Part shown: piece after piece, positions 1 to 27,216 of the stretch
How positions within the stretch are numbered: position 1 is the stretch's first letter
How the letters are laid out: every line of letters starts with the position of its first letter
Source of the DNA: Hydrolagus colliei
Lineage: Eukaryota
Length of the DNA: 64,000 nt
Assembly (NCBI GenBank): GCA_035084275.1
Contig: CM068750.1
Coordinates: forward strand, 6,014,001-6,078,000
Direction of reading: 5' to 3'
Program-made: the position numbers and the translations under genes
Notes under the pieces: generated by a model
Told to the model about the DNA's origin: nothing
Database searches by the model: none
What the model saw: only the letters and a program-made list of their open reading frames with translations

Positions 1-3000
1 CCTTCAATGTTTACTTCAGCTGAACCTGCCTCCACATCCATCGTTGGTATGTTGATATCAGCCTCTGGAACCTTCATGGCCGCTGATACATCAGGAAGGG
101 TTATGTCAATTTGAGGTTTACTGAGGCTTACGTCTGCATCAAATTCACCTTTCACTTTGGGAAGACTTACATTAAGATCCAATTTAGGAGCTTTTATATC
201 GGGTGCAGAAATTCCAAATTTGGGCATCTTCATATGGGGCATTTTGAATTTTCCTTTTGCTCCTCCAATATCTACATCAGGAGCCTCTACACTGACATCC
301 AATGACGGTACTTGTAGATCAATCTCAGGTCCCTTGATATGTCCTTCAGCTGTGGGCAGTTTAACGTCAATGTCTGGCTTTTTCAGACTGAGATCCACCT
401 CAGGGCCTTTAAACTTTGGCATTGAAATCCCAAATTGTGGCATTTTTACTGTTGGCAATTTGAACTTGCCATCTGGGCCTTCAACATTCAGTTCAGTGTC
501 AAGATCCACTGTTGGTGCCTGGATATCAATCTCAGGTCCCTTCATCTGTCCTTTAGCTTTGGGCAGTGTAATGTCAATGTCTGGCTTGGTCATGCTGAGA
601 TCAACTTCAGGGCCTTTAAACTTTGGCATTGAAATCCCAAAATGTGGCATTTTTACTGTTGGCAACTTGAATTTGCCATCTGGGCCTTCAATGTTTACTT
701 CAGCTGAACCTGCCTCCATATCCATCGTTGGTATGTTGATATCAGCCTCTGGAACCTTCATGGCCGCTGATACATTAGGACGGGTTACGTCAATTTGAGG
801 TTTACTGAGGCTTACGTCTGCATCAAATTCACCTTTCACTTTGGGAAGACTTACGTCAAGATCGAATTTGGGAACTTTTCTGTCGGGTGCAGAAAGTCCA
901 AATTTGGGCATCTTGATATGGGGCATTTTGAATTTTCCTTTTGCTCCTCCAATATCTACATCAGGAGCCTCTACACTGACGTCCAATGACGGTACTTGTA
1001 CATCAATCTCAGGTCCCTTGATATCTGCTTTTGCTTTGGGATGTGTAATTTCAATGTCTCGCTTTTTCAAACTGAGATCAACTTCGGGGCCTTTAAATTT
1101 CGGCATAGAAATACCAAAATGTGGCTTCTTAACCTTTGGAATTTTAAACTTTCCATCGGGACCTTCAATGTTTAGCTCTGCTGAACCAGTGTCAAGATCC
1201 ACTGTTGGTGCCTGGATATCAATCTCAGGTCCCTTGATATGTCCTTCAGCTTTGGGCAGTTTAATGTCAATGTCTGGCTTGGTCAAGCTGATATCAACTT
1301 CAGGGCCTTTAAACTTTGGCATTGAAATCCCAAAATGTGGCATTTTTACTGTTGGCAACTTGAATTTGCCATCTGGGCCTTCAATGTTTACTTCCGCTGA
1401 ACCAGGTTCCAAATCCATCGTTGGTATGTTGATTTCAGCCTCTGGAACCTTCATGGCCGCTGATACATCAGGAAGGGTTATGTCAATTTGAGGTTTACTG
1501 AGGCCTACGTCTGCATCAAATTCACCTTTCACTTTGGGAAGACTTACATCAAGATCCAATTTAGGAGCTTTTATATCGGGTGCAGAAATTCCAAATTTGG
1601 GCATCTTCATATGGGGCATTTTGAATTTTCCTTTTGCTCCTCCAATATCTACATCAGGAGCCTCTAAATTGACATCCAATGACGGTACTTGCACATCAAT
1701 CTCAGGTCCCTTGATATCTGCTTTTGCTTTGGGAAGTGTAATTTCAATGGCTGGCTTTTTCAAACTGAGATCAATTTCAGGGCCTCTAAATTTCGGCATA
1801 GAAATACCAAAATGTGGCTTCTTAACCTTTGGAATTTTAAATTTGCCATCGGGACCTTCAATGTTCAGTTCAGCTGAACCAGTGTCAAGATCCACTGTTG
1901 GTGCATGGATATCAATCTCAGGTCCCTTCATCTGTCCTTCAGCTTTTGGCAGTTTAATGTTAATGTCTGGCTTCGTCATGCTGAGATCAACTTCAGGGCC
2001 TTTAAACTTTGGCATTGAAATCCCAAAATGTGGCATTTTTACTGTTGGCAACTTGAATTTGCCATCTGGGCCTTCAATGTTTACTTCAGCTGAACCTGCC
2101 CTCACATCCATCGTTGGTATGTTGATATCAGCCTCTGGAACCTTCATGGCCACTGATACAGCAGGAAGGGTTGTGTCAATTTGAGGTTCACTGAGGCTCA
2201 TGTCTGCATCAAATTCACCTTTCACTTTGGGAAGGCTTACGTCAAGATCCAATTTGGGAGCTTTTATATCGGGTGCAGAAATTCCAAATTTGGGCATCTT
2301 CATATGGGGCATTTTGAATTTTCCTTTTGCTCCTCCAATATCTACATCAGGAGCGTCTACATTGACATCCAATGACGGTACTTGTACATCAATCTCAGGT
2401 CGTTTGATATGTCCTTTAGCTGTGGGCAGTTTAACGTCAATGTCTGGCTTTTTCAGACTGAGATCCACCTCAGGGCCTTTAAACTTTGGCATTGAAATCC
2501 CAAAATGTGGCACTTTTACTGTTGGCAATTTGAACTTGCCATCTGGGCCTTCAACATTCAGTTCAGTGTCAAGATCCACTGTTGGTGCCTGGATATCAAT
2601 CTCAGGCCCCTTCATCTGTCCTTTAGCTTTGGGCAGTTTAATGTCAATGTCTGGCTTGGTCATGCTGAGATCAACTTCAGGGCCTTTAAACTTTGGCATT
2701 GAAATCTCAAAATGTGGCATTTTTACTGTTGGCAACTTGAATTTGCCATCTGGGCCTTCAATGTTTACTTCCGTTGAACCTGCCTCCAAATCCATCGTTG
2801 GTATGTTGATTTCAGCCTCTGGAACCTTCATGGCCGCTGATACATCAGGAAGGGTTATGTCAATTTGAGGTTTACTGAGGCTTACGTCTGCATCAAATTC
2901 ACCTTTCACTTTGGGAAGACTTACGTCAAGATCCAATTTGGGAGCTTTTATATCGGGTGCAGAAATTCCAAATTTGGGCATCTTCATATGGGGCATTTTG

Positions 3001-6000
3001 AATTTTCCTTTTGCTCCTCCAGTATCTATATCAGGAGCCTCTACACTGACATCCAATGACAGTACTTCTACATCAATCTCAGGTCCCTTGATATCTGCTT
3101 TTGCTTTGGGAAGTGTAATTTCAATGTCTGGCTTTTTCAAACTGAGATCAATTTCAGGGCCTTTAAATTTTGGCATAGAAATACCAAAATGTGGCTTCTT
3201 AAACTTTGGAATTTTAAATTTGCCATCGCGACCTTCCATGTTCAGTTCAGCTGAACCAGTGTCAAGATCCACTGTTGGTGCATGGATATCAATCTCAGGT
3301 CGCTTGATGTGTCCTTCTGCTTTGGGCAGTTTAATGTCAAGGTCTGGCTTGGTCATGCTGATATCAACTTCAGGGCCTTTAAACTTTGGCATTGAAATCC
3401 CAAAATGTGGCATTTTTACTGTTGGCAACTTGAATTTGCCATCTGGGCCTTCAATGTTTACTTCCGCTGAACCTGCCTCCAAATCCATCGTTGGTATTTT
3501 GATTTCAGCCTCTTGAACCTTCATGGCCGCTGATACATCAGGAAGGGTTATATCAATTTGAGGTTTACTGAGGCTTACGTCTGCATCAAATTCACCTTTC
3601 ACTTTGGGAAGACTTACGTCAAGATCCAATTTGGGAGCTTTTATATCGGGTGCAGAAATTCCAAATTTGGGCATCTTGATGTGGGGCATTTTTAATTTTC
3701 CTTTTGCTCCTCCAATATCTCCATCAGGAGCCTCTACACTGACATCCAATGACGGTACTTGTACATCAATCTCACGTCCCTTGATATGTCCTTCAGCTGT
3801 GGGCAGTTTCATGTCAATGTCTGGCTTTTTCAGACTAAGATCCACCTCAGGGCCTTTAAACTTTGGCATTGAAATCCCAAAATGTGGCATTTTTACTGTT
3901 GGCAATTTGAACTTGCCATCTGGGCCTTCAACATTCAGTTCAGTGTCAAGATCCACTGTTGGTGCCTGGATATCAATCTCAGGTCCCTTGATCTCTCCTT
4001 TAGCTTTGGGCAGTTTAACGTCAATGTCTGGCTTTTTCAAACTGAGATCAGCTTCAGGGCCTTTAAACTTTGGCATTGAAATCCCAAAATGTGGCATTTT
4101 TACTGTTGGCAACTTGAATTTGCCATCTGGGCCTTCAATGTTTACTTCCGCTGAACCTGCCTCCAAATCCATCGTTGGTATGTTGATTTCAGCCTCTGGA
4201 ACCTTCATGGCCGCTGATACATCAGGAAGGGTTATGTCAATTTGAGGTTTACTGAGGCTTACGTCTGCATTAAATTCACCTTTCACTTTGGGAAGACTTA
4301 CGTCAAGATCCAATTTGGGAGCTTTTATATCGGGTGCAGAAATTCCAAATTTGGGCATCTTCATATGGGGCATTTTGAATTGTCCTTTTGCTCCTCCAAT
4401 ATGTACATCAGGAGCGTCTACATTGACGTCCAATGACGGTACTTGTACATCAATCTCAGGTCCCTTGATATGTCCTTCAGCTGTGGGCAGTTTCACGTCA
4501 ATGTCTGGCTTTTTCAGACTAAGATCCACCTCAGGACCTTTAAACTTTGGCATTGAAATCCCAAAATGTGGCATTTTTACTGTTGGCAATTTGAACTTGC
4601 CATCTGGGCCTTCAACATTCAGTTCAGTGTCAAGATCCACTGTTGGTGCCTGGATATCAATCTCAGGTCCCTTCATCTGTCCTTTAGCTTTGGGCAGTTT
4701 AATGTCAATGTCTGGCTTGGTCATGCTGAGATCAACTTCAGGGCCTTTAAACTTTGGCATTGAAATCCCAAAATGTGGCATTTTTACTGTTGGCAACTTG
4801 AATTTGCCATCTGGGCCTTCAATGTTTACTTCCGCTGAACCTGCCTCCAAATCCATCGTTGGTATGTTGATTTCAGCCTCTGGAACCTTCATGGCCGCTG
4901 ATACATCAGGAAGGGTTATGTCAATTTGAGGTTTACTGAGGCTTACGTCTGCATCAAATTCACCTTTCACTTTGGGAAGACTTACGTCAAGATCCAATTT
5001 GGGAGCTTTTATATCGGGTGCAGAAATTCCAAATTTGGGCATCTTCATATGGGGCATTTTGAATTTTCCTTTTGCTCCTCCAGTATCTACATCAGGGGGC
5101 TCTACACTGACATCCAATGACGGTACTTGTACATCAATCTCAGGTCCCTTGATATCTGCTTTTGCTTTGGGAAGTGTAATGTCAATGTCTGGCTTTTTCA
5201 AACTGAGATCAATTTCAGGGCCTTTAAATTTTGGCATAGAAATACCAAAATGTGGCTTCTTAACCTTTGGAATTTTAAATTTGCCATCGGGACCTTCAAT
5301 GTTCAGTTCAATTGAACCAGTGTCAAGATCCACTGTTGGTGCATGGATATCAATCTCAGGTCCCTTGATCTCTCCTTTAGCTTTGGGCAGTTTAACGTCA
5401 ATGTCTGGCTTTTTCAAACTGAGATCAGCTTCAGGGCCTTTAAACTTTGGCATTGAAATCCCAAAATGTGGCATTTTTACTGTTGGCAACTTGAATTTGC
5501 CATCTGGGCCTTCAATGTTTACTTCCGCTGAACCTGCCTCCAAATCCATCGTTGGTATGTTGATTTCAGCCTCTGGAACCTTCATGGCCGCTGATACATC
5601 AGGAACGGTTATGTCAATTTGAGGTTTACTGAGGCTTACGTCTGCATCAAATTCACCTTTCACTTTGGGAAGACTTACGTCAAGATCCAATTTGGGAGCT
5701 TTTATATCGGGTGCAGAAATTCCAAATTTGGGCATCTTCATATGGGGCATTTTGAATTGTCCTTTTGCTCCTCCAATATGTACATCAGGAGCGTCTACAT
5801 TGACGTCCAATGACGGTACTTGTACATCAATCTCAGGTCCCTTGATATGTCCTTCAGCTGTGGGCAGTTTCACGTCAATGTCTGGCTTTTTCAGACTAAG
5901 ATCCACCTCAGGACCTTTAAACTTTGGCATTGAAATCCCAAAATGTGGCATTTTTACTGTTGGCAATTTGAACTTGCCATCTGGGCCTTCAACATTCAGT

Positions 6001-9000
6001 TCAGTGTCAAGATCCACTGTTGGTGCCTGGATATCAATCTCAGGTCCCTTCATCTGTCCTTTAGCTTTGGGCAGTTTAATGTCAATGTCTGGCTTGGTCA
6101 TGCTGAGATCAACTTCAGGGCCTTTAAACTTTGGCATTGAAATCCCAAAATGTGGCATTTTTACTGTTGGCAACTTGAATTTGCCATCTGGGCCTTCAAT
6201 GTTTACTTCCGCTGAACCTGCCTCCAAATCCATCGTTGGTATGTTGATTTCAGCCTCTGGAACCTTCATGGCCGCTGATACATCAGGAAGGATTATGTCA
6301 ATTTGAGGTTTACTGAGGCTTACGTCTGCATCAAATTCACCTTTCACTTTGGGAAGACTTACGTCAAGATCCAATTTGGGAGCTTTTATATCGGGTGCAG
6401 AAATTCCAAATTTGGGCATCTTCATACGGGGCATTTTGAATTTTCCTTTTGCTCCTCCAGTATCTACATCAGGGGCCACTACACTGACATCCAATGACGG
6501 TACTTGTACATCAATCTCAGGTCCCTTGATATCTGCTTTTGCTTTGGGAAGTGTAATGTCAATGTCTGGCTTTTTCAAACTGAGATCAATTTCAGGGCCT
6601 TTAAATTTCGGCATAGAAATACCAAAATGTGGCTTCTTAACCTTTGGAATTTTAAATTTGCCATCGGGACCTTCAATGTTCAGTTCAACTGAACCAGTGT
6701 CAAGATCCACTGTTGGTGCATGGATATCAATCTCAGGTCCCTTGATCTCTCCTTTAGCTTTGGGCAGTTTAACGTCAATGTCTGGCTTTTTCAAACTGAG
6801 ATCAGCTTCAGGGCCTTTAAACTTTGGCATTGAAATCCCAAAATGTGGCATTTTTACTGTTGGCAACTTGAATTTGCCATCTGGTCCTTCAATGTTTACT
6901 TCCGCTGAACCTGCCTCCAAATCCATCGTTGGTATGTTGATTTCAGCCTCTGGAACCTTCATGGCCGCTGATACATCAGGAAGGGTTATGTCAATTTGAG
7001 GTTTACTGAGGCTTACGTCTGCATCAAATTCACCTTTCACTTTGGGAAGACTTACGTCAAGATCCAATTTGGGAGCTTTTATATCGGGTGCAGAAATTCC
7101 AAATTTGGGCATCTTCATATGGGGCATTTTGAATTGTCCTTTTGCTCCTCCAATATCTACATCAGGAGCGTCTACATTGACGTCCAATGACGGTACTTGT
7201 ACATCAATCTCAGGTCCCTTGATATGTCCTTCAGCTGTGGGCAGTTTCACGTCAATGTCTGGCTTTTTCAGACTAAGATCCACCTCAGGACCTTTAAACT
7301 TTGGCATTGAAATCCCAAAATGTGGCATTTTTACTGTTGGCAATTTGAACTTGCCATCTGGGCCTTCAACATTCAGTTCAGTGTCAAGATCCACTGTTGG
7401 TGCCTGGATATCAATCTCAGGTCCCTTCATCTGTCCTTTAGCTTTGGGCAGTTTAATGTCAATGTCTGGCTTGGTCATGCTGAGATCAACTTCAGGGCCT
7501 TTAAACTTTGGCATTGAAATCCCAAAATGTGGCATTTTTACTGTTGGCAACTTGAATTTGCCATCTGGGCCTTCAATGTTTACTTCCGCTGAACCTGCCT
7601 CCAAATCCATCGTTGGTATGTTGATTTCAGCCTCTGGAACCTTCATGGCCGCTGATACATCAGGAAGGGTTATGTCAATTTGAGGTTTACTGAGGCTTAC
7701 GTCTGCATCAAATTCACCTTTCACTTTGGGAAGACTTACGTCAAGATCCAATTTGGGAGCTTTTATATCGGGTGCAGAAATTCCAAATTTGGGCATCTTC
7801 ATATGGGGCATTTTGAATTTTCCTTTTGCTCCTCCAGTATCTACATCAGGGGGCTCTACACTGACATCCAATGACGGTACTTGTACATCAATCTCAGGTC
7901 CCTTGATATCTGCTTTTGCTTTGGGAAGTGTAATGTCAATGTCTGGCTTTTTCAAACTGAGATCAATTTCAGGGCCTTTAAATTTTGGCATAGAAATACC
8001 AAAATGTGGCTTCTTAACCTTTGGAATTTTAAATTTGCCATCGGGACCTTCAATGTTCAGTTCAATTGAACCAGTGTCAAGATCCACTGTTGGTGCATGG
8101 ATATCAATCTCAGGTCCCTTGATCTCTCCTTTAGCTTTGGGCAGTTTAACGTCAATGTCTGGCTTTTTCAAACTGAGATCAGCTTCAGGGCCTTTAAACT
8201 TTGGCATTGAAATCCCAAAATGTGGCATTTTTACTGTTGGCAACTTGAATTTGCCATCTGGGCCTTCAATGTTTACTTCCGCTGAACCTGCCTCCAAATC
8301 CATCGTTGGTATGTTGATTTCAGCCTCTGGAACCTTCATGGCCGCTGATACATCAGGAACGGTTATGTCAATTTGAGGTTTACTGAGGCTTACGTCTGCA
8401 TCAAATTCACCTTTCACTTTGGGAAGACTTACGTCAAGATCCAATTTGGGAGCTTTTATATCGGGTGCAGAAATTCCAAATTTGGGCATCTTCATATGGG
8501 GCATTTTGAATTGTCCTTTTGCTCCTCCAATATGTACATCAGGAGCGTCTACATTGACGTCCAATGACGGTACTTGTACATCAATCTCAGGTCCCTTGAT
8601 ATGTCCTTCAGCTGTGGGCAGTTTCACGTCAATGTCTGGCTTTTTCAGACTAAGATCCACCTCAGGACCTTTAAACTTTGGCATTGAAATCCCAAAATGT
8701 GGCATTTTTACTGTTGGCAATTTGAACTTGCCATCTGGGCCTTCAACATTCAGTTCAGTGTCAAGATCCACTGTTGGTGCCTGGATATCAATCTCAGGTC
8801 CCTTCATCTGTCCTTTAGCTTTGGGCAGTTTAATGTCAATGTCTGGCTTGGTCATGCTGAGATCAACTTCAGGGCCTTTAAACTTTGGCATTGAAATCCC
8901 AAAATGTGGCATTTTTACTGTTGGCAACTTGAATTTGCCATCTGGGCCTTCAATGTTTACTTCCGCTGAACCTGCCTCCAAATCCATCGTTGGTATGTTG

Positions 9001-12000
9001 ATTTCAGCCTCTGGAACCTTCATGGCCGCTGATACATCAGGAAGGATTATGTCAATTTGAGGTTTACTGAGGCTTACGTCTGCATCAAATTCACCTTTCA
9101 CTTTGGGAAGACTTACGTCAAGATCCAATTTGGGAGCTTTTATATCGGGTGCAGAAATTCCAAATTTGGGCATCTTCATACGGGGCATTTTGAATTTTCC
9201 TTTTGCTCCTCCAGTATCTACATCAGGGGCCACTACACTGACATCCAATGACGGTACTTGTACATCAATCTCAGGTCCCTTGATATCTGCTTTTGCTTTG
9301 GGAAGTGTAATGTCAATGTCTGGCTTTTTCAAACTGAGATCAATTTCAGGGCCTTTAAATTTCGGCATAGAAATACCAAAATGTGGCTTCTTAACCTTTG
9401 GAATTTTAAATTTGCCATCGGGACCTTCAATGTTCAGTTCAATTGAACCAGTGTCAAGATCCACTGTTGGTGCATGGATATCAATCTCAGGTCCCTTGAT
9501 CTCTCCTTTAGCTTTGGGCAGTTTAACGTCAATGTCTGGCTTTTTCAAACTGAGATCAGCTTCAGGGCCTTTAAACTTTGGCATTGAAATCCCAAAATGT
9601 GGCATTTTTACTGTTGGCAACTTGAATTTGCCATCTGGTCCTTCAATGTTTACTTCCGCTGAACCTGCCTCCAAATCCATCGTTGGTATGTTGATTTCAG
9701 CCTCTGGAACCTTCATGGCCGCTGATACATCAGGAAGGGTTATGTCAATTTGAGGTTTACTGAGGCTTACGTCTGCATCAAATTCACCTTTCACTTTGGG
9801 AAGACTTACGTCAAGATCCAATTTGGGAGCTTTTATATCGGGTGCAGAAATTCCAAATTTGGGCATCTTCATATGGGGCATTTTGAATTGTCCTTTTGCT
9901 CCTCCAATATCTACATCAGGAGCGTCTACATTGACGTCCAATGACGGTACTTGTACATCAATCTCAGGTCCCTTGATATGTCCTTCAGCTGTGGGCAGTT
10001 TCACGTCAATGTCTGGCTTTTTCAGACTAAGATCCACCTCAGGACCTTTAAACTTTGGCATTGAAATCCCAAAGTGTGGCATTTTTACAGTCGGCAATTT
10101 GAACTTGCCATCTGGGCCTTCAACATTCAGTTCAGTGTCAAGATCCACTGTTGGTGCCTGGATATCAATCTCAGGTCCCTTCATCTGTCCTTTAGCTTTG
10201 GGCAGTTTAATGTCAATGTCTGGCTTGGTCATGCTGAGATCAACTTCAGGGCCTTTAAACTTTGGCATTGAAATCCCAAAATGTGGCATTTTTACTGTTG
10301 GCAACTTGAATTTGCCATCTGGGCCGTGAATGTTTACTTCCGCTGAACCTGCCTCCAAATCCATCGTTGGTATGTTGATTTCAGCCTCTGGAACCTTCAT
10401 GGCCGCTGATACATCAGGAACGGTTATGTCAATTTGAGGTTTACTGAGGCTTACGTCTGCATCAAATTCACCTTTCACTTTGGGAAGACTTACGTCAAGA
10501 TCCAATTTGGGAGATTTTATATCGGGTGCAGAAATTCCAAATTTGGGCATCTTCATATGGGGCATTTTGAATTTTCCTTTTGCTCCTCCAGTATCTACAT
10601 CAGGGGGCTCTACACTGACATCCAATGACGGTACTTGTACATCAATCTCAGGTCCCTTGATATCTGCTTTTGCTTTGGGAAGTGTAATGTCAATGTCTGG
10701 CTTTTTCAAACTGAGATCAATTTCAGGGCCTTTAAATTTTGGCATAGAAATACCAAAATGTGGCTTCTTAACCTTTGGAATTTTAAATTTGCCATCGGGA
10801 CCTTCAATGTTCAGTTCAATTGAACCAGTGTCAAGATCCACTGTTGGTGCATGGATATCAATCTCAGGTCCCTTGATCTCTCCTTTAGCTTTGGGCAGTT
10901 TAACGTCAATGTCTGGCTTTTTCAAACTGAGATCAGCTTCAGGGCCTTTAAACTTTGGCATTGAAATCCCAAAATGTGGCATTTTTACTGTTGGCAACTT
11001 GAATTTGCCATCTGGGCCTTCAATGTTTACTTCCGCTGAACCTGCCTCCAAATCCATCGTTGGTATGTTGATTTCAGCCTCTGGAACCTTCATGGCCGCT
11101 GATACATCAGGAACGGTTATGTCAATTTGAGGTTTACTGAGGCTTACGTCTGCATCAAATTCACCTTTCACTTTGGGAAGACTTACGTCAAGATCCAATT
11201 TGGGAGCTTTTATATCGGGTGCAGAAATTCCAAATTTGGGCATCTTCATATGGGGCATTTTGAATTGTCCTTTTGCTCCTCCAATATGTACATCAGGAGC
11301 GTCTACATTGACGTCCAATGACGGTACTTGTACATCAATCTCAGGTCCCTTGATATGTCCTTCAGCTGTGGGCAGTTTCACGTCAATGTCTGGCTTTTTC
11401 AGACTAAGATCCACCTCAGGACCTTTAAACTTTGGCATTGAAATCCCAAAATGTGGCATTTTTACTGTTGGCAATTTGAACTTGCCATCTGGGCCTTCAA
11501 CATTCAGTTCAGTGTCAAGATCCACTGTTGGTGCCTGGATATCAATCTCAGGTCCCTTCATCTGTCCTTTAGCTTTGGGCAGTTTAATGTCAATGTCTGG
11601 CTTGGTCATGCTGAGATCAACTTCAGGGCCTTTAAACTTTGGCATTGAAATCCCAAAATGTGGCATTTTTACTGTTGGCAACTTGAATTTGCCATCTGGG
11701 CCTTCAATGTTTACTTCCGCTGAACCTGCCTCCAAATCCATCGTTGGTATGTTGATTTCAGCCTCTGGAACCTTCATGGCCGCTGATACATCAGGAAGGG
11801 TTATGTCAATTTGAGGTTTACTGAGGCTTACGTCTGCATCAAATTCACCTTTCACTTTGGGAAGACTTACGTCAAGATCCAATTTGGGAGCTTTTATATC
11901 GGGTGCAGAAATTCCAAATTTGGGCATCTTCATACGGGGCATTTTGAATTTTCCTTTTGCTCCTCCAGTATCTACATCAGGGGCCACTACACTGACATCC

Positions 12001-15000
12001 AATGACGGTACTTGTACATCAATCTCAGGTCCCTTGATATCTGCTTTTGCTTTGGGAAGTGTAATGTCAATGTCTGGCTTTTTCAAACTGAGATCAATTT
12101 CAGGGCCTTTAAATTTCGGCATAGAAATACCAAAATGTGGCTTCTTAACCTTTGGAATTTTAAATTTGCCATCGGGACCTTCAATGTTCAGTTCAACTGA
12201 ACCAGTGTCAAGATCCACTGTTGGTGCATGGATATCAATCTCAGGTCCCTTGATCTCTCCTTTAGCTTTGGGCAGTTTAACGTCAATGTCTGGCTTTTTC
12301 AAACTGAGATCAGCTTCAGGGCCTTTAAACTTTGGCATTGAAATCCCAAAATGTGGCATTTTTACTGTTGGCAACTTGAATTTGCCATCTGGTCCTTCAA
12401 TGTTTACTTCCGCTGAACCTGCCTCCAAATCCATCGTTGGTATGTTGATTTCAGCCTCTGGAACCTTCATGGCCGCTGATACATCAGGAAGGGTTATGTC
12501 AATTTGAGGTTTACTGAGGCTTACGTCTGCATCAAATTCACCTTTCACTTTGGGAAGACTTACGTCAAGATCCAATTTGGGAGCTTTTATATCGGGTGCA
12601 GAAATTCCAAATTTGGGCATCTTCATATGGGGCATTTTGAATTGTCCTTTTGCTCCTCCAATATCTACATCAGGAGCGTCTACATTGACGTCCAATGACG
12701 GTACTTGTACATCAATCTCAGGTCCCTTGATATGTCCTTCAGCTGTGGGCAGTTTCACGTCAATGTCTGGCTTTTTCAGACTAAGATCCACCTCAGGACC
12801 TTTAAACTTTGGCATTGAAATCCCAAAATGTGGCATTTTTACAGTCGGCAATTTGAACTTGCCATCTGGGCCTTCAACATTCAGTTCAGTGTCAAGATCC
12901 ACTGTTGGTGCCTGGATATCAATCTCAGGTCCCTTCATCTGTCCTTTAGCTTTGGGCAGTTTAATGTCAATGTCTGGCTTGGTCATGCTGAGATCAACTT
13001 CAGGGCCTTTAAACTTTGGCATTGAAATCCCAAAATGTGGCATTTTTACTGTTGGCAACTTGAATTTGCCATCTGGGCCGTGAATGTTTACTTCCGCTGA
13101 ACCTGCCTCCAAATCCATCGTTGGTATGTTGATTTCAGCCTCTGGAACCTTCATTGCCGCAGATACATCAGGAACGGTTATGTCAATTTGAGGTTTACTG
13201 AGGCTTACGTCTGCATCAAATTCACCTTTCACTTTGGGAAGACTTACGTCAAGATCCAATTTGGGAGCTTTTATATCGGGTGCAGAAATTCCAAATTTGG
13301 GCATCTTCATATGGGGCATTTTGAATTTTCCTTTTGCTCCTCCAGTATCTACATCAGGGGGCTCTACACTGACATCCAATGACGGTACTTGTACATCAAT
13401 CTCAGGTCCCTTGATATCTGCTTTTGCTTTGGGAAGTGTAATGTCAATGTCTGGCTTTTTCAAACTGAGATCAATTTCAGGGCCTTTAAATTTTGGCATA
13501 GAAATACCAAAATGTGGCTTCTTAACCTTTGGAATTTTAAATTTGCCATCGGGACCTTCAATGTTCAGTTCAATTGAACCAGTGTCAAGATCCACTGTTG
13601 GTGCATGGATATCAATCTCAGGTCCCTTGATCTCTCCTTTAGCTTTGGGCAGTTTAACGTCAATGTCTGGCTTTTTCAAACTGAGATCAGCTTCAGGGCC
13701 TTTAAACTTTGGCATTGAAATCCCAAAATGTGGCATTTTTACTGTTGGCAACTTGAATTTGCCATCTGGGCCTTCAATGTTTACTTCCGCTGAACCTGCC
13801 TCCAAATCCATCGTTGGTATGTTGATTTCAGCCTCTGGAACCTTCATGGCCGCTGATACATCAGGAACGGTTATGTCAATTTGAGGTTTACTGAGGCTTA
13901 CGTCTGCATCAAATTCACCTTTCACTTTGGGAAGACTTACGTCAAGATCCAATTTGGGAGCTTTTATATCGGGTGCAGAAATTCCAAATTTGGGCATCTT
14001 CATATGGGGCATTTTGAATTGTCCTTTTGCTCCTCCAATATCTACATCAGGAGCGTCTACATTGACGTCCAATGACGGTACTTGTACATCAATCTCAGGT
14101 CCCTTGATATGTCCTTCAGCTGTGGGCAGTTTCACGTCAATGTCTGGCTTTTTCAGACTAAGATCCACCTCAGGACCTTTAAACTTTGGCATTGAAATCC
14201 CAAAATGTGGCATTTTTACTGTCGGCAATTTGAACTTGCCATCTGGGCCTTCAACATTCAGTTCAGTGTCAAGATCCACTGTTGGTGCCTGGATATCAAT
14301 CTCAGGTCCCTTCATCTGTCCTTTAGCTTTGGGCAGTTTAATGTCAATGTCTGGCTTGGTCATGCTGAGATCAACTTCAGGGCCTTTAAACTTTGGCATT
14401 GAAATCCCAAAATGTGGCATTTTTACTGTTGGCAACTTGAATTTGCCATCTGGGCCGTGAATGTTTACTTCCGCTGAACCTGCCTCCAAATCCATCGTTG
14501 GTATGTTGATTTCAGCCTCTGGAACCTTCATGGCCGCTGATACATCAGGAACGGTTATGTCAATTTGAGGTTTACTGAGGCTTACGTCTGCATCAAATTC
14601 ACCTTTCACTTTGGGAAGACTTACGTCAAGATCCAATTTGGGAGCTTTTATATCGGGTGCAGAAATTCCAAATTTGGGCATCTTCATATGGGGCATTTTG
14701 AATTTTCCTTTTGCTCCTCCAGTATCTACATCAGGGGCCTCTACACTGACATCCAATGACGGTACTTGTACATCAATCTCAGGTCCCTTGATATCTGCTT
14801 TTGCTTTGGGAAGTGTAATGTCAATGTCTGGCTTTTTCAAACTGAGATCAATTTCAGGGCCTTTAAATTTCGGCATAGAAATACCAAAATGTGGCTTCTT
14901 AACCTTTGGAATTTTAAATTTGCCATCGGGACCTTCAATGTTCAGTTCAACTGAACCAGTGTCAAGATCCACTGTTGGTGCATGGATATCAATCTCAGGT

Positions 15001-18000
15001 CCCTTGATCTCTCCTTTAGCTTTCGGCAGTTTAACGTCAATGTCTGGCTTTTTCAAACTGAGATCAGCTTCAGGGCCTTTAAACTTTGGCATTGAAATCC
15101 CCAAATGTGGCATTTTTACTGTTGGCAACTTGAATTTGCCATCTGGGCCTTCAATGTTTACTTCCGCTGAACCTGCCTCCAAATCCATCGTTGGTATGTT
15201 GATTTCAGCCTCTGGAACCTTCATGGCCGCTGATACATCAGGAAGGGTTATGTCAATTTGAGGTTTACTGAGGCTTACGTCTGCATCAAATTCACCTTTC
15301 ACTTTGGGAAGACTTACGTCAAGATCCAATTTGGGAGCTTTTATATCGGGTGCAGAAATTCCAAATTTGGGCATCTTCATATGGGGCATTTTGAATTGTC
15401 CTTTTGCTCCTCCAATATCTACATCAGGAGCGTCTACATTGATGTCCAATGACGGTAATTGTACATCAATCTCAGGTCCCTTGATGTGTCCTTCAGCTGT
15501 GGGCAGTTTCACGTCAATGTCTGGCTTTTTCAGACTAAGATCCACCTCAGGACCTTTAAACTTTGGCATTGAAATCCCAAAATGTGGCATTTTTACTGTT
15601 GGCAATTTGAACTTGCCATCTGGGCCTTCAACATTCAGTTCAGTGTCAAGATCCACTGATGGTGCCTGGATATCAATCTCAGGTCCCTTCATCTGTCCTT
15701 TAGCTTTGCGCAGTTTAATGTCAATGTCTGGCTTGGTCATGCTGAGATCAACTTCAGGGCCTTTAAACTTTGGCATTGAAATCCCAAAATGTGGCTTCTT
15801 AACCTTTGGAATTTTAAATTTGCCATCGGGACCTTCAATGTTCAGTTCAACTGAACCAGTGTCAAGATCCACTGTTGGTGCATGGATATCAATCTCAGGT
15901 CCCTTGATCTCTCCTTTAGCTTTGGGCAGTTTAACGTCAATGTCTGGCTTTTTGAAACTGAGATCAGCTTCAGGGCCTTTAAACTTTGGCATTGAAATCC
16001 CAAAATGTGGCATTTTTACTGTTGGCAACTTGAATTTGCCATCTGGGCCTTCAATGTTTACTTCCGCTGAACCTGCCTCCAAATCCATCGTTGGTATGTT
16101 GATTTCAGCCTCTGGAACCTTCATGGCCGCTGATACATCAGGAAGGGTTATGTCAATTTGAGGTTTACTGAGGCTTACGTCTGCATCAAATTCACCTTTC
16201 ACTTTGGGAAGACTTACGTCAAGATCCAATTTGGGAGCTTTTATATCGGGTGCAGAAATTCCAAATTTGGGCATCTTCATATGGGGCATTTTGAATTGTC
16301 CTTTTGCTCCTCCAATATGTACATCAGGTGCCTCTACTTTGACGTCCAATGACGGTACTTGTACATCAATGTCAGGTTTTTTGATATGTCCTTCAGCTGT
16401 GGGCAGTTTCACGTCAATGTCTGGCTTTTTCAGACTAAGATCCACCTCAGGGCCTTTAAACTTTGGCATTGAAATCCCAAAATGTGGCATTTTTACTGTT
16501 GGCAATTTGAACTTGCCATCTGGGCCTTCAACATTCAGTTCAGTGTCAAGATCCACTGTTGGTGCCTGGATATCAATCTCAGGTCCCTTCATCTGTCCTT
16601 TAGCTTTGGGCAGTTTAATGTCAATGTCTGGCTTGGTCATGCTGAGATCAACTTCAGGGCCTTTAAACTTTGGCATTGAAATCCCAAAATGTGGCATTTT
16701 TACTGTTGGCAACTTGAATTTGCCATCTGGGCCTTCAATGTTTACTTCCGCTGAACCTGCCTCCAAATCCATCGTTGGTATGTTGATTTCAGCCTCTGGA
16801 ACCTTCATGGCCGCTGATACATCAGGAACGGTTATGTCAATTTGAGGTTTACTGAGGCTTACGTCTGCATCAAATTCACCTTTCACTTTGGGAAGACTTA
16901 CGTCAAGATCCAATTTGGGAGCTTTTATATCGGGTGCAGAAATTCCAAATTTGGGCATCTTCATATGGGGCATTTTGAATTTTCCTTTTGCTCCTCCAGT
17001 ATCTACATCAGGGGCCTCTACACTGACATCCAATGACGGTACTTGTACATCAATCTCAGGTCCCTTGATATCTGCTTTTGCTTTGGGAAGTGTAATGTCA
17101 ATGTCTGGCTTTTTCAAACTGAGATCAATTTCAGGGCCTTTAAATTTCGGCATAGAAATACCAAAATGTGGCTTCTTAACCTTTGGAATTTTAAATTTGC
17201 CATCGGGACCTTCAATGTTCAGTTCAACTGAACCAGTGTCAAGATCCACTGTTGGTGCATGGATATCAATCTCAGGTCCCTTGATCTCTCCTTTAGCTTT
17301 GGGCAGTTTAACGTCAATGTCTGGCTTTTTCAAACTGAGATCAGCTTCAGGGCCTTTAAACTTTGGCATTGAAATCCCAAAATGTGGCATTTTTACTGTT
17401 GGCAACTTGAATTTGCCATCTGGTCCTTCAATGTTTACTTCCGCTGAACCTGCCTCCAAATCCATCGTTGGTATGTTGATTTCAGCCTCTGGAACCTTCA
17501 TGGCCGCTGATACATCAGGAAGGGTTATGTCAATTTGAGGTTTACTGAGGCTTACGTCTGCATCAAATTCACCTTTCACTTTGGGAAGACTTACGTCAAG
17601 ATCCAATTTGGGAGCTTTTATATCGGGTGCAGAAATTCCAAATTTGGGCATCTTCATATGGGGCATTTTGAATTGTCCTTTTGCTCCTCCAATATCTACA
17701 TCAGGAGCGTCTACATTGACGTCCAATGACGGTACTTGTACATCAATCTCAGGACCCTTGATGTGTCCTTCAGCTGTGGGCAGTTTCACGTCAATGTCTG
17801 GCTTTTTCAGACTAAGATCCACCTCAGGGCCTTTAAACTTTGGCATTGAAATCCCAAAATGTGGCATTTTTACTGTTGGCAATTTGAACTTGCCATCTGG
17901 GCCTTCAACATTCAGTTCAGTGTCAAGATCCACTGTTGGTGCCTGGATATCAATCTCAGGTCCCTTCATCTGTCCTTTAGCTTTGGGCAGTTTAATGTCA

Positions 18001-21000
18001 ATGTCTGGCTTGGTCATGCTGAGATCAACTTCAGGGCCTTTAAACTTTGGCATTGAAATCCCAAAATGTGGCATTTTTACTGTTGGCAACTTGAATTTGC
18101 CATCTGGGCCTTCAATGTTTACTTCCGCTGAACCTGCCTCCAAATCCATCGTTGGTATGTTGATTTCAGCCTCTGGAACCTTCATGGCCGCTGATACATC
18201 AGGAACAGTTATGTCAATTTGAGGTTTACTGAGGCTTACGTCTGCATCAAATTCACCTTTCACTTTGGGAAGACTTACGTCAAGATCCAATTTGGGAGCT
18301 TTTATATCGGGTGCAGAAATTCCAAATTTGGGCATCTTCATATGGGGCATTTTGAATTTTCCTTTTGCTCCTCCAGTATCTACATCAGGGGCCTCTACAG
18401 TGACATCCAATGACGGTACTGGTACATCAATCTCAGGTCCCTTGATATCTGCTTTTGCTTTGGGAAGTGTAATGTCAATGTCTGGCTTTTTCAAACTGAG
18501 ATCAATTTCAGGGCCTTTAAATTTCGGCATAGAAATACCAAAATGTGGCTTCTTAACCTTTGGAATTTTAAATTTGCCATCGGGACCTTCAATGTTCAGT
18601 TCAACTGAACCAGTGTCAAGATCCACTGTTGGTGCATGGATATCAATCTCAGGTCCCTTGATCTCTCCTTTAGCTTTGGGCAGTTTAACGTCAATGTCTG
18701 GCTTTTTCAAACTGAGATCAGCTTCAGGGCCTTTAAACTTTGGCATTGAAATCCCCAAATGTGGCATTTTTACTGTTGGCAACTTGAATTTGCCATCTGG
18801 GCCTTCAATGTTTACTTCCGCTGAACCTGCCTCCAAATCCATCGTTGGTATGTTGATTTCAGCCTCTGGAACCTTCATGGCCGCTGATACATCAGGAAGG
18901 GTTATGTCAATTTGAGGTTTACTGAGGCTTACGTCTGCATCAAATTCACCTTTCACTTTGGGAAGACTTACGTCAAGATCCAATTTGGGAGCTTTTATAT
19001 CGGGTGCAGAAATTCCAAATTTGGGCATCTTCATATGGGGCATTTTGAATTGTCCTTTTGCTCCTCCAATATGTACATCAGGTGCCTCTACTTTGACGTC
19101 CAATGATGGTACTTGTACATCAATGTCAGGTTTTTTGATATGTCCTTCAGCTGTGGGCAGTTTAACGTCAATGTCTGGCTTTTTCAGACTAAGATCCACC
19201 TCAGGGCCTTTAAACTTTGGCATTGAAATCCCAAAATGTGGCATTTTTACTGTTGGCAATTTGAACTTGCCATCTGGGCCTTCAACATTCAGTTCAGTGT
19301 CAAGATCCACTGTTGGTGCCTGGATATCAATCTCAGGTCCCTTCATCTGTCCTTTAGCTTTGGGCAGTTTAATGTCAATGTCTGGCTTGGTCATGCTGAG
19401 ATCAACTTCAGGGCCTTTAAACTTTGGCATTGAAATCCCAAAATGTGGCATTTTTACTGTTGGCAACTTGAATTTGCCATCTGGGCATTCAATGTTTACT
19501 TCCGCTGAACCTGCCTCCAAATCCATCGATGGTATGTTGATTTCAGCCTCTGGAACCTTCATGGCCGCTGATACATCAGGAACGGTTATGTCAATTTGAG
19601 GTTTACTGAGGCTTACGTCTGCATCAAATTCACCTTTCACTTTGGGAAGACTTACGTCAAGATCCAATTTGGGAGCTTTTATATCGGGTGCAGAAATTCC
19701 AAATTTGGGCATCTTCATATGGGGCATTTTGAATTTTCCTTTTGCTCCTCCAGTATCTGCATCAGGGGCCTCTACACTGACATCCAATGACGGTACTTGT
19801 ACATCAATCTCAGGTCCCTTGATCTCTCCTTTAGCTTTGGGCAGTTTAACGTCAATGTCTGGCTTTTTCAAACTGAGATCAGCTTCAGGGCCTTTAAACT
19901 TTGGCATTGAAATCCCAAAATGTGGCATTTTTACTGTTGGCAACTTGAATTTGCCATCTGGGCCTTCAATGTTTACTTCCGCTGAACCTGCCTCCAAATC
20001 CATCGTTGGTATGTTGATTTCAGCCTCTGGAACCTTCATGGCCGCTGATACATCAGGAAGGGTTATGTCAATTTGAGGTTTACTGAGGCTTACGTCTGCA
20101 TCAAATTCACCTTTCACTTTGGGAAGACTTACGTCAAGATCCAATTTGGGAGCTTTTATATCGGGTGCAGAAATTCCAAATTTGGGCATCTTCATATGGG
20201 GCATTTTGAATTGTCCTTTTGCTCCTCCAATATGTACATCAGGTGCCTCTACTTTGACGTCCAATGATGGTACTTGTACATCAATGTCAGGTTTTTTGAT
20301 ATGTCCTTCAGCTGTGGGCAGTTTAACGTCAATGTCTGGCTTTTTCAGACTAAGATCCACCTCAGGGCCTTTAAACTTTGGCATTGAAATCCCCAAATGT
20401 GGCATTTTTACTGTTGGCAATTTGAACTTGCCATCTGGGCCTTCAACATTCAGTTCAGTGTCAAGATCCACTGTTGGTGCCTGGATATCAATCTCAGGTC
20501 CCTTCATCTGTCCTTTAGCTTTGGGCAGTTTAATGTCAATGTCTGGCTTGGTCATGCTGAGATCAACTTCAGGGCCTTTAAACTTTGGCATTGAAATCCC
20601 AAAATGTGGCATTTTTACTGTTGGCAACTTGAATTTGCCATCTGGGCCTTCAATGTTTATTTCAGCTGAACCTTCCTCCATATCCATCGTTGGTATGTTG
20701 ATATCACTTTCTGAAACCTTCATGCCCGCTGATAAATCAGGAAGGGTTACATCAATTTGGGGTTTACTGAAGCTTACATCTGCATCAAATTCACCTTTCA
20801 CTTTGGGAAGACTTACATCAAGGTCCAATTTGGGACCTTTTACATCAGGTGAAGAAAATCCAAATTTAGGCATCCTGATGTGGGGCATTTTGAATTTTCC
20901 TTTCGCTTCTCCCATGTCTACGTCAGGAGCCTCTACATTGACATCCAATGACGGTACTTGTACATCAATCTCAGGTCCCTTGATATCTGCTTTTGCTTTG

Positions 21001-22400
21001 GGAAGTGTAATTTCAACGTCTGGCTTTTTCAAACTGAGATCAACTTCAGGGCCTTTAAATTTCGGCATAGAAATACCAAAATGTGGCTTCTTAAACTTTG
21101 GAATTTTAAACTTTCCATCGAGACCTTCAATGTTCAGTTCAGCTGAACCAGTGTCAAGATCCATTGTTGGTGCGTGGATATCAATCTCGGGTCCCTTGAT
21201 GTGTCCTTCAGCTTTGGGCAGTTTAACATCAATGTCTGGCTTTTTCAGACTGGGATCCACCTCAGGGCCTTTAAACTTTGGCATTGAAATCCCAAATTGT
21301 GGCGTTTTTACTGTTGGCAATTTGAACTTGCCATCTGGACCTTCAATGTTTACTTGAGCTGAACCTGCCTCCACATCCATCGTTGGCATGCTGATATTAG
21401 CCTCTGGAACCGTCGCTGATTCATCAGGTAGGGTTACGTCAAATTGAGGTTTACTGAGGCTTACGTCTGCTTCAAATTCACCTTTCACTTTGGGCAAACT
21501 CACATCCATTTCAACTTTTGGCAAACTAACATCAATATCCAATTTGGGAGGTTTTACATCAGGTGAAGAAAATCCAAATTTAGGCATCCTCATGTGGGGC
21601 ATTTTGAATTTTCCTTTTGCTCCTCCCGTGTCTACGTCAGGAGCCTCTACATTGATATTCAATGACGGTACTTGTACATCAATCTCAGGTCCCTTGATAT
21701 CTGCTGTTGCTTTCGCAAGTGTAAGGTTAATATCTGGTTTTTTTCGACTGAGATCCACCTCAGGGCCTTTAAATTTTGCCATTGATATCCCAAACTGTGG
21801 CATTTTTACTGTTGGCAACCTGAATTTGCCATCTGGGCCTTCAATGTTTATTTCAGCTGAACCAGTCTCCACATCCATCATTGGTATGTTGATATCTACT
21901 TCTGGAACTTTGATATCCGCTGATACATCAGGCACTGTTACGTCAACTTTGGCTTTTTGAAGGTTTACTTCTGTATCAATTTCACCTTTCAGCTTTTTAC
22001 TTGCATCCACATCTGCTTTTGGCACTTCAGCCTCATGTTTCGATTTGGGAACTTTTATATCAGGTGCAGAAAATCCAATTTTGAGGCCTTTATTGTGGGA
22101 TAGTTTGTATTTTCCTTGTTTTCCACCTATCTTAGCATCTGAAAGCTGCATATCTATTTCCAATGAAGGTATGTCTGTATGTATCTCAGGTCCCTTGATG
22201 CCAAGTTTTGATTTGGTAATTGTAGCATCACTGTTTGCCTTTTTCGAACCTATATCCTCTTCAGTGTCTTTAAACTTTGGCATTGATAAGCCAAAATTTG
22301 GCATTTTTAACTTTGGCATTTTAAACTTTGCATCTAAACCTGCAATGTCTTTTGCAGAACCAATCCCCACTTCCATTGTTGGTGGATGAATTTCAGTCTC
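1..22400 (-). repeat. Coding tandem array: about 31 units of 684 bp (A) or 693 bp (B) between 111 and 21443, with degenerate units to about 22400
   Basis: Unit boundaries at 111, 795, 1488, 2181, 2865, 3558, 4242, 4926, 5619 ... 14565, 15258, 16158, 16842, 17535, 18219, 18912, 19596, 20073, 20757, 21444. Each unit has three KMPxFG-containing submodules of about 69/72, 72 and 87 aa. Confidence 0.97.
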
Positions 22401-23729
22401 TGGATCTTTGATATGCATTGATGCAGCAGGTAGAGTTACTTCAGCTTGGGATTTCGTGGGACTGAAGTGCTCATGTCTTATCTTGGGAAGCGTCTCTTTC
22501 ACTGTGTCTATTTTCAAGGAAACATCAGGATTTTGCATCTGAACAACCCCAATGCTGAATTGACCACCCACCGTGGATGTTTTTGTATCAACTTTGGAGG
22601 CATCATCTGATGGATAAGATATGTCAACGTTTTGAGCCATCACACCAAGTGTAGTCTTTTTAATTTTCTTCTCTTTCTTCAATTTGGTTTTCTTTTGTGC
22701 ATCTTCAATTTTCCCAAAGGCATCTTTGGATGGAGATACCTGGCTGTGTACGTGGGATCCTTTCATTTCTGTTTCAGTACTTTTCAGTGGAATGTTCATA
22801 TCTGGCTGTTTCATGATTATATCTGTTTGAAATGGTTGTAATGTGACATCAGTTGGCACATCGATGCTTTGGTGTTTCATTTGTTCCGTATAGCCAAGTG
22901 TTGAAGAGCCTGCTTTGTCTTTGTGTTGACTCTGTGTTGTTGCCTGCTCTATTGAAAAGTGCAGACTGTCCTTCAATTGTTCAGAAGCTTTAAGAGATAC
23001 ATTTTGTAATTTCTCACCCTCTGCCTTTGGTTGTGAAATTTCGATTGTTTTACTCTCATGGTATTGAAGTGGGAGTGAGTGTGATGTCGCTTCCTGTGGT
23101 AATGCAATGGCATCTTTGGGAGAAATTGTATCCGACATCAAAAATTTAGCAATTTTGAGCTTTGGTATTTTGTATTTTGCTTCTAAGTCCAGATTTGTTT
23201 CTTGTTTTTCATTTTTGGGCTTTTGCTCAGTCGGTTTGACTTCTGTCATTATTTTGTCATCTTTAGTGTTCTGTAATGTTAAATCTACAATTATTTTTGA
23301 ACTGCCTTGTTTTGCTGTTGAAAATTCATTGCTATCTGTGAAAACCATTTGTGTCTCTTCAAGGACCTCTGTCTTTGTACTTGGACCAAGATGTGGAAAT
23401 TTTATTTTTTTTCTTCGTTTCTTTACTTTCTGGGGTGATTCTGACAAATGTAAATGCGATTCTAAATCTGTGCTTGTTACAGTGATTACCTGCTGATCAC
23501 GATCTTCTGTTTCTGGTAAACTGCGAGATCTATCTAATTTGTCCATCTTTGTTTTTCTGCTATCTGGAAATGTAGAGCCAGAAAATGTTATATCTGATAC
23601 CTTAGCAGATTTTGTCGTGCCCTGATTACCCATTTCCTGACATGTTTTTCTGTGTATTTTCATTTCTTCAGAATCAACCAGTTTTGTTTTTTGCTTATAC
23701 AGGTCCGTAAAAATGTCTTCTTTTTCTCC
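1..23729 (-). CDS. AHNAK2: AHNAK2-like giant terminal coding exon (3' end beyond window), at least 7,909 codons; unique linker followed by AHNAK-type repeats
   Basis: Acceptor tttcttcatag|GGAGAA at 23729, phase 0. The minus frame reads GEKEDIFTDLYKQK...DRSRSLPETEDRDQQVITVTSTDLESHL (cf. recalled human AHNAK2 [28 protein letters not shown]), then repeats such as EGPDGKFKLPTVKMPHFGISMPKFKGPEVDLSLKKPDIDVKLP. All unit spacings are multiples of 3. The ORF track lists no closed minus ORF here, consistent with a frame running off the window without a stop. Confidence 0.93.
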
Positions 23730-24694: not shown

Positions 24695-24876
24695 CACAAT
24701 CGATTTAAAGTCTTTCACATCGACTTGCTCAGGTCCTATTGCAGCAGCTGCAGCACTCGGGATCTTTCGCTTCAGGCAGTATTGCATTTTGTATGGTTCG
24801 GAGTACTGCAAAATCTTGAGAGCGTCTTCAAATTTCATTTTATCAAAGTAAACTGTTGCACTGACAAGTTGATCAC
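24695..24876 (-). CDS. AHNAK2: AHNAK2 coding exon, C-terminal half of PDZ domain ([40 protein letters not shown]...)
   Basis: ttccttcag|GT acceptor, GTG|gtaggt donor, 182 nt (phase 1 to 0). Matches recalled human AHNAK2 [33 protein letters not shown]. Confidence 0.95.
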
Positions 24877-25455: not shown

Positions 25456-25609
25456 CTTCTTTCATGTTTAATAGCTTTGCGGCAGGAGATTCTTTTTGCA
25501 CATTCTTGATAAATATACCCTTATCTTCTCCACTCTTCACACTGAATCCACTTGCACCTACTTCAGCTTCTGTTTTCAAAATCACTTCTATGTCGGTTTC
25601 CATTTCTCT
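25456..25609 (-). CDS. AHNAK2: AHNAK2 coding exon, N-terminal half of PDZ domain (REMETDIEVILKTEAEVGASGFSVKSGEDKGIFIKNVQKESPAAKLLNMKE)
   Basis: ctccttgcag|AGA acceptor, AAG|gtaaga donor, 154 nt (phase 0 to 1). Matches recalled AHNAK2 [44 protein letters not shown]. Confidence 0.95.
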
Positions 25610-27105: not shown

Positions 27106-27216
27106 CTTTTTGTCCCTGCCTCCGATTTCCTCTGTTAATGAGTAGTCATACACCGGTGAAGACCCTTGAGGCCTTGGTCTAACAGTTTCTACAAATTCAG
27201 TTGGCAGCTCACACAC
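27106..27216 (-). CDS. AHNAK2: AHNAK2 coding exon 3 (VCELPTEFVETVRPRPQGSSPVYDYSLTEEIGGRDKK)
   Basis: cctcgttctag|GTG acceptor, AAG|gtaagt donor, 111 nt (phase 0 to 0). Contains the AHNAK2-type RPRPQGSSPVY motif. Confidence 0.92.

What the first reader, a model, noticed from the sequence alone, without database searches (positions are those of the whole stretch)
4242..15257. Satellite-like higher-order repeats (1377-bp dimer, 2754-bp tetramer) inside a coding exon
Seen: strict alternation of 684 and 693 bp from 4242 to 15257. Diagnostic variants recur at 2754 bp: catacgggg plus gggccactac in units 6303/9057/11811; gggggctctac in 4926/7680/10434/13188; aggattatg in 5619/8373. gggccgtga occurs at about 10321, 13075 and 14452 (2754 then 1377). 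The hierarchy is roughly 72 aa to 228/231 aa to 459 aa to 918 aa. Inference: very recent block amplification by unequal exchange, probably a coding VNTR polymorphic between individuals.
Basis: partly seen in the sequence, partly recalled or inferred. Interest (0 to 1): 0.75.

Follow-up and report, generated by a model that had tools for sequence, protein, structure and literature searches.

The report
Nested repeats in chimaera AHNAK2 exon
This is the repetitive giant exon of the scaffold-protein gene AHNAK2, probably from a chimaera (a shark relative), whose repeats were copied in blocks within blocks, a real and neat pattern but one that many vertebrate AHNAK-family proteins also show.

Summary
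The 684/693-bp alternation and all five diagnostic motifs lie where stated. Identity is 99.17% at lag 1377 and 99.69% at lag 2754, and the period-2 order of the dimers beats permutation (160 of 40320). The array lies in the minus-strand giant exon (23729 to the window edge, 7909 codons, no stop) of AHNAK2. Its PDZ exons match 4cn0 and its head is 75% identical to Callorhinchus milii AHNAK2. Corrections: monomers are 87, 69 and 72 aa, not a uniform 72; the 1377 register spans 3941-15795; the tetramer is shallow (six alternating SNPs over seven dimers, three over all eight) and mosaic. Best reading: in-frame unequal exchange plus conversion, under selection for the open frame. It is not exceptional. 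Of 120 long relatives, 67 carry blocks at least 95% identical; 16 of these have compound units and 2 show both tiers. Mouse Ahnak2 is a listed coding VNTR of 22-33 copies. Polymorphism here, exact copy number and age stay untested.

The parts
3..23729 (-). Giant coding exon of AHNAK2, at least 7909 codons, open at the left window edge; acceptor AG at 23731-23730
   Evidence: first residues align to C. milii AHNAK2 residue 111 onward
3941..15795 (-). Homogeneous core array in the 1377-bp (459-aa) register, about 8.6 dimers
4242..4925 (-). Example 684-bp half (A), 228 aa, monomer lengths 87+69+72
4926..5618 (-). Example 693-bp half (B), 231 aa, monomer lengths 87+72+72; an A/B pair aligned in coding frame is 91.8% identical with 2 differences in the first 300 nt
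4242..6995 (-). 2754-bp tetramer copy 1
   Evidence: 3, 10 and 20 differences to copies 2, 3 and 4
6996..9749 (-). Tetramer copy 2
   Evidence: 9 differences to copy 3, 19 to copy 4
9750..12503 (-). Tetramer copy 3; first half carries the E-to-H (gggccgtga) subtype
12504..15257 (-). Tetramer copy 4, degenerate; its second dimer (13881) is a mosaic
15258..16157 (-). 900-bp unit (684+216) that breaks the register; holds a chimeric monomer with an I-type head and a 69-aa tail
16158..19595 (-). Second 684/693 block, dimers 10-20 differences from core dimers
19596..20072 (-). 477-bp (87+72 = 159 aa) unit, the unit length that dominates the C. milii protein
111..3557 (-). Older, diverged 684/693 units on the 3' side of the core (16-34 differences to their nearest neighbour)
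21828..23729 (-). Largely non-repetitive head of the giant exon; 640 aa from the exon start are 75% identical to C. milii AHNAK2
24695..24876 (-). Exon encoding the second half of the PDZ domain (AG/GT)
   Evidence: 4cn0 AHNAK2 E 5e-13, periaxin 4cmz E 1.2e-11; splice sites
25456..25609 (-). Exon encoding the first half of the PDZ domain (AG/GT)
   Evidence: Pfam PF00595 above cut-off; 4cn0 E 1.8e-12, 4cmz E 3.1e-08
27106..27216 (-). Small coding exon 3
   Evidence: 95% identical to C. milii; AG/GT
27731..27783 (-). Small coding exon 2
51155..51209 (-). First coding exon (ATG at 51209, 55 nt, GT donor)
   Evidence: 95% identical to C. milii, 86% to Amblyraja

Best explanation
The stretch is the central repeat domain of AHNAK2, encoded in one giant exon, most likely in a chimaera other than Callorhinchus milii. 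Shown: gene identity, exon structure, the nested periods (87/69/72 aa monomers, 228/231, 459, 918), an intact frame and mosaic units. Inferred: the nesting is a by-product of repeated unequal exchange between misaligned copies, plus conversion. An ancestral 87+72 unit gained a third monomer. Two variants of the three-monomer unit (one with a 9-bp deletion) were then amplified together as the 1377-bp dimer. Point mutations arose in single dimers, and a two-dimer block was copied a few times, which prints those mutations at 2754-bp spacing. Further exchanges eroded the pattern. Selection keeps the frame and weakly the sequence, but not the order or number of units. The protein most likely works as in mammals, as a PDZ-bearing, very long multivalent scaffold (from literature, not tested here).
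For: PDZ exons best match AHNAK2. The head's best hits are C. milii AHNAK2 at 75%, next named species below 35%. 7909 codons have no stop, and unit lengths 477/684/693/900 are all multiples of 3. Core units lie 0-3 differences from their nearest neighbour and left-flank units 16-34. 24 of 91 informative pairs fail the four-gamete test. The 87-aa monomer is homogenised across A and B (2.5 differences within type, 3.4 between) while the rest of A/B diverges. In 15 of 21 variable columns one allele occurs nowhere else in the array, including 3 of the 6 alternating columns. The 87-aa monomers cluster by species, 16 window vs 4 C. milii, support 100/99. pN/pS is 0.42 in the core (12 N, 8 S, p=0.058) and 0.36-0.66 in five monomer classes, 2 of 5 significant. 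Near-identical and compound blocks are common among relatives.
Against: A toy neutral duplication/deletion model gave a lag2/lag1 ratio as low as observed (0.38) in only 2-3% of 400 runs per setting. So the tetramer needs a run of two-unit events or a biased exchange, and is not the typical snapshot. Core variants are 14 transversions to 7 transitions, which I cannot explain. There is only one haplotype and no reads. The C. milii models (2668-3238 aa) may be collapsed, so the ancestral-unit argument is soft. The core pN/pS test is not significant.
Confidence: 0.82

Rival explanations
1. Assembly artefact: an assembler duplicated or interleaved near-identical blocks or haplotypes, creating or inflating the 2754-bp period.
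For: No reads or depth were available. Several halves are identical (27 units give 23 distinct rows). An exact repeat of 2285 bp sits at lag 2754. Repeat-region gene-prediction problems are noted for this family (bioRxiv 2020.02.14.947036, passage seen).
Against: No two of the 8 dimers and no two of the 4 tetramers are identical. Differences are substitutions shared in patterns, with no indel or stop in 23.7 kb. The longest exact repeat (2.3 kb) is short against typical long reads (own knowledge). The same architecture appears in independently assembled relatives. An error in copy number by one or two blocks remains possible.
Confidence: 0.07
2. The 459- or 918-aa period is a selected protein super-repeat, a ruler matching a partner lattice as titin and nebulin super-repeats do (recalled).
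For: Strict A/B alternation over 16 units. Most tetramer-marking changes alter residues. AHNAK2 is described as costameric (PMC8833689 passages).
Against: Periods are lineage-specific: 159 in C. milii, 217/434 in Heptranchias, 386 in turtles, 335-367 in birds, 236-243 in squamates. The register breaks within this exon (900- and 477-bp units, B-B at 795/1488). Tetramer halves differ by only 8-15 nt in 1377, and unit junctions are mosaic.
Confidence: 0.05
3. One replication-based burst (template switching or rolling-circle-like copying) multiplied the 2754-bp block at once, instead of stepwise unequal exchange.
For: The tetramer signal is stronger than the stepwise toy model usually gives. A two-base codon change (GAA to CAC) and a clustered KGPEID-to-KKPDID change occur, as template switching can make.
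Against: Tetramer distances grade along the array (3, 9, 14 between neighbours; 20 between the ends) rather than forming a star. Four-gamete failures need recombination or conversion after copying.
Confidence: 0.06

Closest known systems
AHNAK2 (AHNAK/AHNAK2/periaxin family)
   Same: N-terminal PDZ on small exons, then one giant exon with a central repeat domain (PMC10682155 passages).
   Different: The human protein has 24 units of about 165 aa. Here the units are 228/231 aa grouped into 459 and 918, and the exon is at least 23.7 kb.
Mouse Ahnak2 and Ahnak coding VNTRs (PMC12903361 Table S7)
   Same: Same genes; copy number listed as 22-33 (Ahnak2, 171-173 aa) and 34-36 (Ahnak).
   Different: Variation is documented there and untested here; the rows seen report no higher-order structure.
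Other vertebrate AHNAK-family proteins with compound units (one search hits)
   Same: P0239 Phyllopteryx 190/380/760 and P0164 Lycodopsis 281 (2 x about 140) with a further tier; P0152 Pristiophorus 588 = 3 x 196; P0136 Anolis 729 = 3 x 243; P0143 Festucalex 568 = 3 x 190.
   Different: Unit sizes differ per lineage. The window's 918 tier (mismatch 0.013 falling to 0.001) is among the cleanest by that measure.
Spidroin ensemble repeats (MaSp)
   Same: Coding higher-order repeats, homogenised within a gene (PMC9779670 passages).
   Different: Unrelated protein; short Gly/Ala motifs, in some genes delimited by introns.
Alpha-satellite HORs and NBPF/Olduvai triplet HORs
   Same: Diverged monomers repeated as a near-identical block (search listings and abstract starts only).
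   Different: Alpha satellite is non-coding with thousands of copies. NBPF units are about 1.6 kb and, as I recall, span exons and introns. Here there are about 8.6 dimers and 4.3 tetramers, all in frame.

Membership tests
AHNAK2 | N-terminal PDZ closer to AHNAK2 than to periaxin | tested here: met
   Both PDZ exons score 4cn0 above 4cmz: 49.4 vs 36.4 bits and 51.9 vs 47.6 bits
AHNAK2 | Several small exons followed by one giant repeat exon | tested here: met
   Five small coding exons with GT donors (AG acceptors on exons 2-5), then 23729-3
AHNAK2 | Orthology by non-repetitive sequence | tested here: met
   Head 75% identical to C. milii AHNAK2; exons 1 and 3 95%. Labels are the sources' own; no family tree of paralogues was built
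AHNAK2 | Non-repetitive C-terminal domain | not testable with these tools
   The exon runs off the left window edge
AHNAK2 | Conserved neighbouring genes | not tested
   No neighbouring gene was identified in 51.2-64 kb from the ORF list; no targeted search was run
Higher-order repeat (1377-bp dimer) | Corresponding monomers in successive blocks much closer than adjacent monomers | tested here: met
   99.2% at lag 1377 vs 91.8% between A and B; A and B clades 100/100
Higher-order repeat (2754-bp tetramer) | Period-2 excess similarity among dimers | tested here: met
   4.3 vs 11.4 mean differences; 160 of 40320 permutations
Higher-order repeat (2754-bp tetramer) | All sub-units form position-specific clades throughout the array | tested here: not met
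   B halves follow period 2 for seven units; A halves do not (11127 groups with 4242/5619/8373; 13881 with 9750/12504); the last dimer is mosaic
Coding VNTR | Tandem in-frame units inside the CDS | tested here: met
Coding VNTR | Copy number varies among individuals | not testable with these tools
   One haplotype only; precedent in mouse
Concerted evolution | Units cluster by species rather than by position | tested here: met
   87-aa monomers, 16 window vs 4 C. milii, one split, 100/99; bootstrap not fully settled; the C. milii model may be incomplete
Satellite DNA proper | Non-coding, very high copy array | tested here: not met
   Coding, about 30 three-monomer units in the window; it behaves like a satellite but is not one

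The most novel reading that the evidence does not exclude
The array is a live, polymorphic higher-order repeat caught between periods, and the 459-aa A/B alternation is kept by selection as a lineage-specific ruler for the AHNAK2 scaffold, so that allele length in 459- or 918-aa steps tunes its span.
Probability: 0.07. Interest if true: 0.65.

Novelty: new member of a known kind. Interest (0 to 1): 0.3.

Why it matters
As a single case it adds a clean, well-resolved example of satellite-style repeat turnover inside a coding exon of a slow-evolving lineage. The more useful point is family-wide. AHNAK and AHNAK2 exons in sharks, bony fishes, reptiles, birds and some mammals carry independently sized, near-identical and often compound blocks. 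That makes a replicated natural test of how higher-order repeats arise under a reading-frame constraint. Fast repeat evolution of AHNAK and PRX is already reported (bioRxiv 2020.02.14.947036), as is copy-number variation in mouse (PMC12903361). My searches listed no paper whose title or abstract start describes higher-order organisation of AHNAK-family repeats. The library lacks most subscription journals, so this does not show absence.

Tried and rejected
Pfam on the repeat (1000 aa) and head (710 aa) gave only low-complexity noise: whole-protein scores for DUF7406 and Mga but zero passing stretches. AlphaFold2 on one 231-aa unit with a 12-row alignment of window units gave mean pLDDT 36 and pTM 0.11. 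The alignment is too shallow to say anything for or against the proposed beta-propeller (PMC8833689 calls it unproven), and no fold search was run. The first test for compound units in relatives (rotation column, 66 of 67) was invalid because the alignment recovered trivial self-overlap. It was discarded and replaced by non-overlapping splits (16 of 67); the third-tier column does not use that test. The 227/230-aa plus-strand stop-to-stop frames are antisense shadows with one stop per unit, not genes. An 8-mer level at 5508 bp was rejected because identity is lower than at 2754. Rfam at gathering threshold found nothing in the 64 kb. TRF cannot see periods above 500 and reported only 207/216/477.
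Full report
What is there. The finding lies in a minus-strand frame open from 23729 to the left window edge, 7909 codons without a stop. The frame starts right after a polypyrimidine tract and AG. Two upstream exons, 25609-25456 and 24876-24695, encode the halves of a PDZ domain (Pfam PF00595). Both match the solved AHNAK2 PDZ (4cn0) better than periaxin (4cmz). A search with the first 640 residues of the exon returned 209 proteins, 120 listed. The top four are Callorhinchus milii AHNAK2 isoforms at 75% identity, and other species fall below 35%. tblastn with relatives placed three more exons at 51209-51155, 27783-27731 and 27216-27106. The gene is AHNAK2, and the animal is most likely a chimaera other than C. 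milii (inference from these identities).

The observation. The 16 units from 4242 to 15257 alternate 684/693 bp exactly, and all five diagnostic motifs are in the units named. Identity is 99.17% at lag 1377, 99.69% at 2754, 99.19% at 4131 and 99.47% at 5508. Among the 8 dimers the mean differences are 11.4, 4.3, 11.2 and 7.25 at lags 1-4, and 160 of 40320 orderings match the lag1-lag2 contrast. Four refinements follow. The monomers are 87, 69 and 72 aa (30, 16 and 47 of 98 segments). The 1377 register extends from 3941 to 15795. A 900-bp unit breaks it, and the alternation resumes at 16158-19595. The tetramer is shallow: 21 columns vary among the 8 dimers, 6 alternate over the first seven and 3 over all eight. 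In the unit tree A and B halves separate at 100/100. B halves split by period 2 (4926/7680/10434/13188 against 6303/9057/11811), while A halves follow position in the array as much as period.

How it most likely arose. Every unit length (477, 684, 693, 900) is a multiple of three. Core units have a neighbour 0-3 differences away, left-flank units 16-34. Of 91 informative site pairs 24 show all four gametes, which needs recombination, conversion or recurrent mutation. A and B are 91.8% identical overall but differ at only 2 of their first 300 coding bases, so the 87-aa monomer is still homogenised at the shorter period. In 15 of the 21 variable columns one allele is found nowhere else in the array with the same 13-base context. 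Three of the six alternating columns are among them (neighbouring variants can hide matches). This fits mutations arising in one dimer and then being multiplied with a two-dimer block. The 87-aa monomers cluster by species against C. milii. The C. milii protein is built mainly on 87+72 = 159 aa and shows no 69-aa segment, though that model may be collapsed. Selection on sequence is weak to moderate: pN/pS is 0.42 in the core (p=0.058) and 0.36-0.66 in five monomer classes, two significant. Two results sit less well with this reading. A toy neutral model reached the observed lag2/lag1 ratio in only 2-3% of runs, and the core variants are transversion-rich, 14 to 7.

Age and polymorphism. Tetramer copies 1 and 2 differ at 3 of 2754 sites, one of them private. 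With the epaulette-shark rate of 7e-10 per generation (PMC10587355, abstract seen), one to three differences equal about 2.6-7.8 x 10^5 generations. This is my arithmetic with a rate borrowed from another lineage. Exchange between homologs could produce such differences instantly, so 'very recent' is neither shown nor excluded. Polymorphism cannot be tested on one haplotype. The mouse orthologue is a listed coding VNTR: Ahnak2 22-33 copies, Ahnak 34-36 (PMC12903361; main-text passages and two rows of Table S7 seen; one supplementary file was not searched).

Artefact. No two dimers or tetramers are identical, there is no indel or stop, and the longest exact repeat is 2285 bp. That argues against plain assembler duplication, but an error of one or two blocks cannot be excluded without reads.

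How unusual. A search with one dimer found 207 proteins of 4349-13841 aa; the 120 listed were analysed. They mix AHNAK and AHNAK2 labels, include isoforms of the same species and six entries without an organism name, so they are not independent. Over a best 1000-residue window, 83 of 120 reach 90% identity at some lag, 58 reach 97% and 37 reach 99%. Of the 67 reaching 95%, 16 have a unit that splits into sub-units at least 70% identical. Fifteen have a multiple of the unit with at most half the mismatch rate (best-window choice inflates this). Two, P0239 Phyllopteryx (190/380/760) and P0164 Lycodopsis, show both tiers, as the window does. So near-identical blocks are common in the family, compound units are frequent, and the two-tier form is uncommon but not unique. 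PhyRepID ranks AHNAK first and PRX eighth for repeat evolution and warns of gene-prediction problems (bioRxiv 2020.02.14.947036; three passages seen; its supplements were not seen and may list unit structures). Coding higher-order repeats are known from spidroins (PMC9779670, passages) and NBPF (listings only).

Function. Reviews describe AHNAK2 as a tripartite scaffold with PDZ, central repeats and C-terminal domain, costameric in muscle, with an unproven beta-propeller model for the repeats (PMC10682155 and PMC8833689, passages). The fold prediction here was uninformative. Because periods differ between lineages and break within this exon, I take the hierarchy as a record of mutational process, not a functional ruler. 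PMC4079513 was seen in two passages and adds only the 24-copy human repeat.

Verdict. Real and accurately described; a new member of a known kind (AHNAK-family coding repeat array under concerted evolution). Interest 0.3.

Noticed in passing
window 25864-25742 (-): A 123-nt AG/GT-flanked segment resembling an exon-sized stretch of catshark and skate AHNAK2 carries an in-frame TAA at 25831-25829. It ends in the Met that starts the Heptranchias and turtle models. Three C. milii models splice exon 3 directly to the PDZ exon in frame, so this looks like an exon that decayed or is skipped in chimaeras.
   Followed up: partly
window about 20303, 19142 and 16388 (-): Three units share a clustered change turning KGPEID into KKPDID, resembling the LKKPDID sub-repeat in the same monomer. 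A short conversion or template switch is possible, but the DNA does not match that donor exactly.
   Followed up: partly
window 10321, 13075, 14452: The gggccgtga variant is a two-base codon change, GAA to CAC (Glu to His), confined to the right half of the core.
   Followed up: partly
window 3941-15795: Core variants are 14 transversions to 7 transitions; unexplained.
   Followed up: no
window 34046-63071: A dispersed repeat family of roughly 100-300 bp with more than a dozen copies at 70-87% identity, SINE-like by appearance. Stretches at 57013-57689 and 58223-58647 translate like LINE 3' remnants (labels recalled, not tested).
   Followed up: no
window 60697-61547: Strongly C/T-skewed tandem array with periods of about 26-29, 58 and 83 bp.
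   Followed up: no
proteins P0146, P0158, P0159, P0163, P0182 and others: Many bird AHNAK2 proteins (periods 335-367) and Scleropages (354) have blocks essentially 100% identical over 1000 residues, as homogeneous as or more so than this window.
   Followed up: partly
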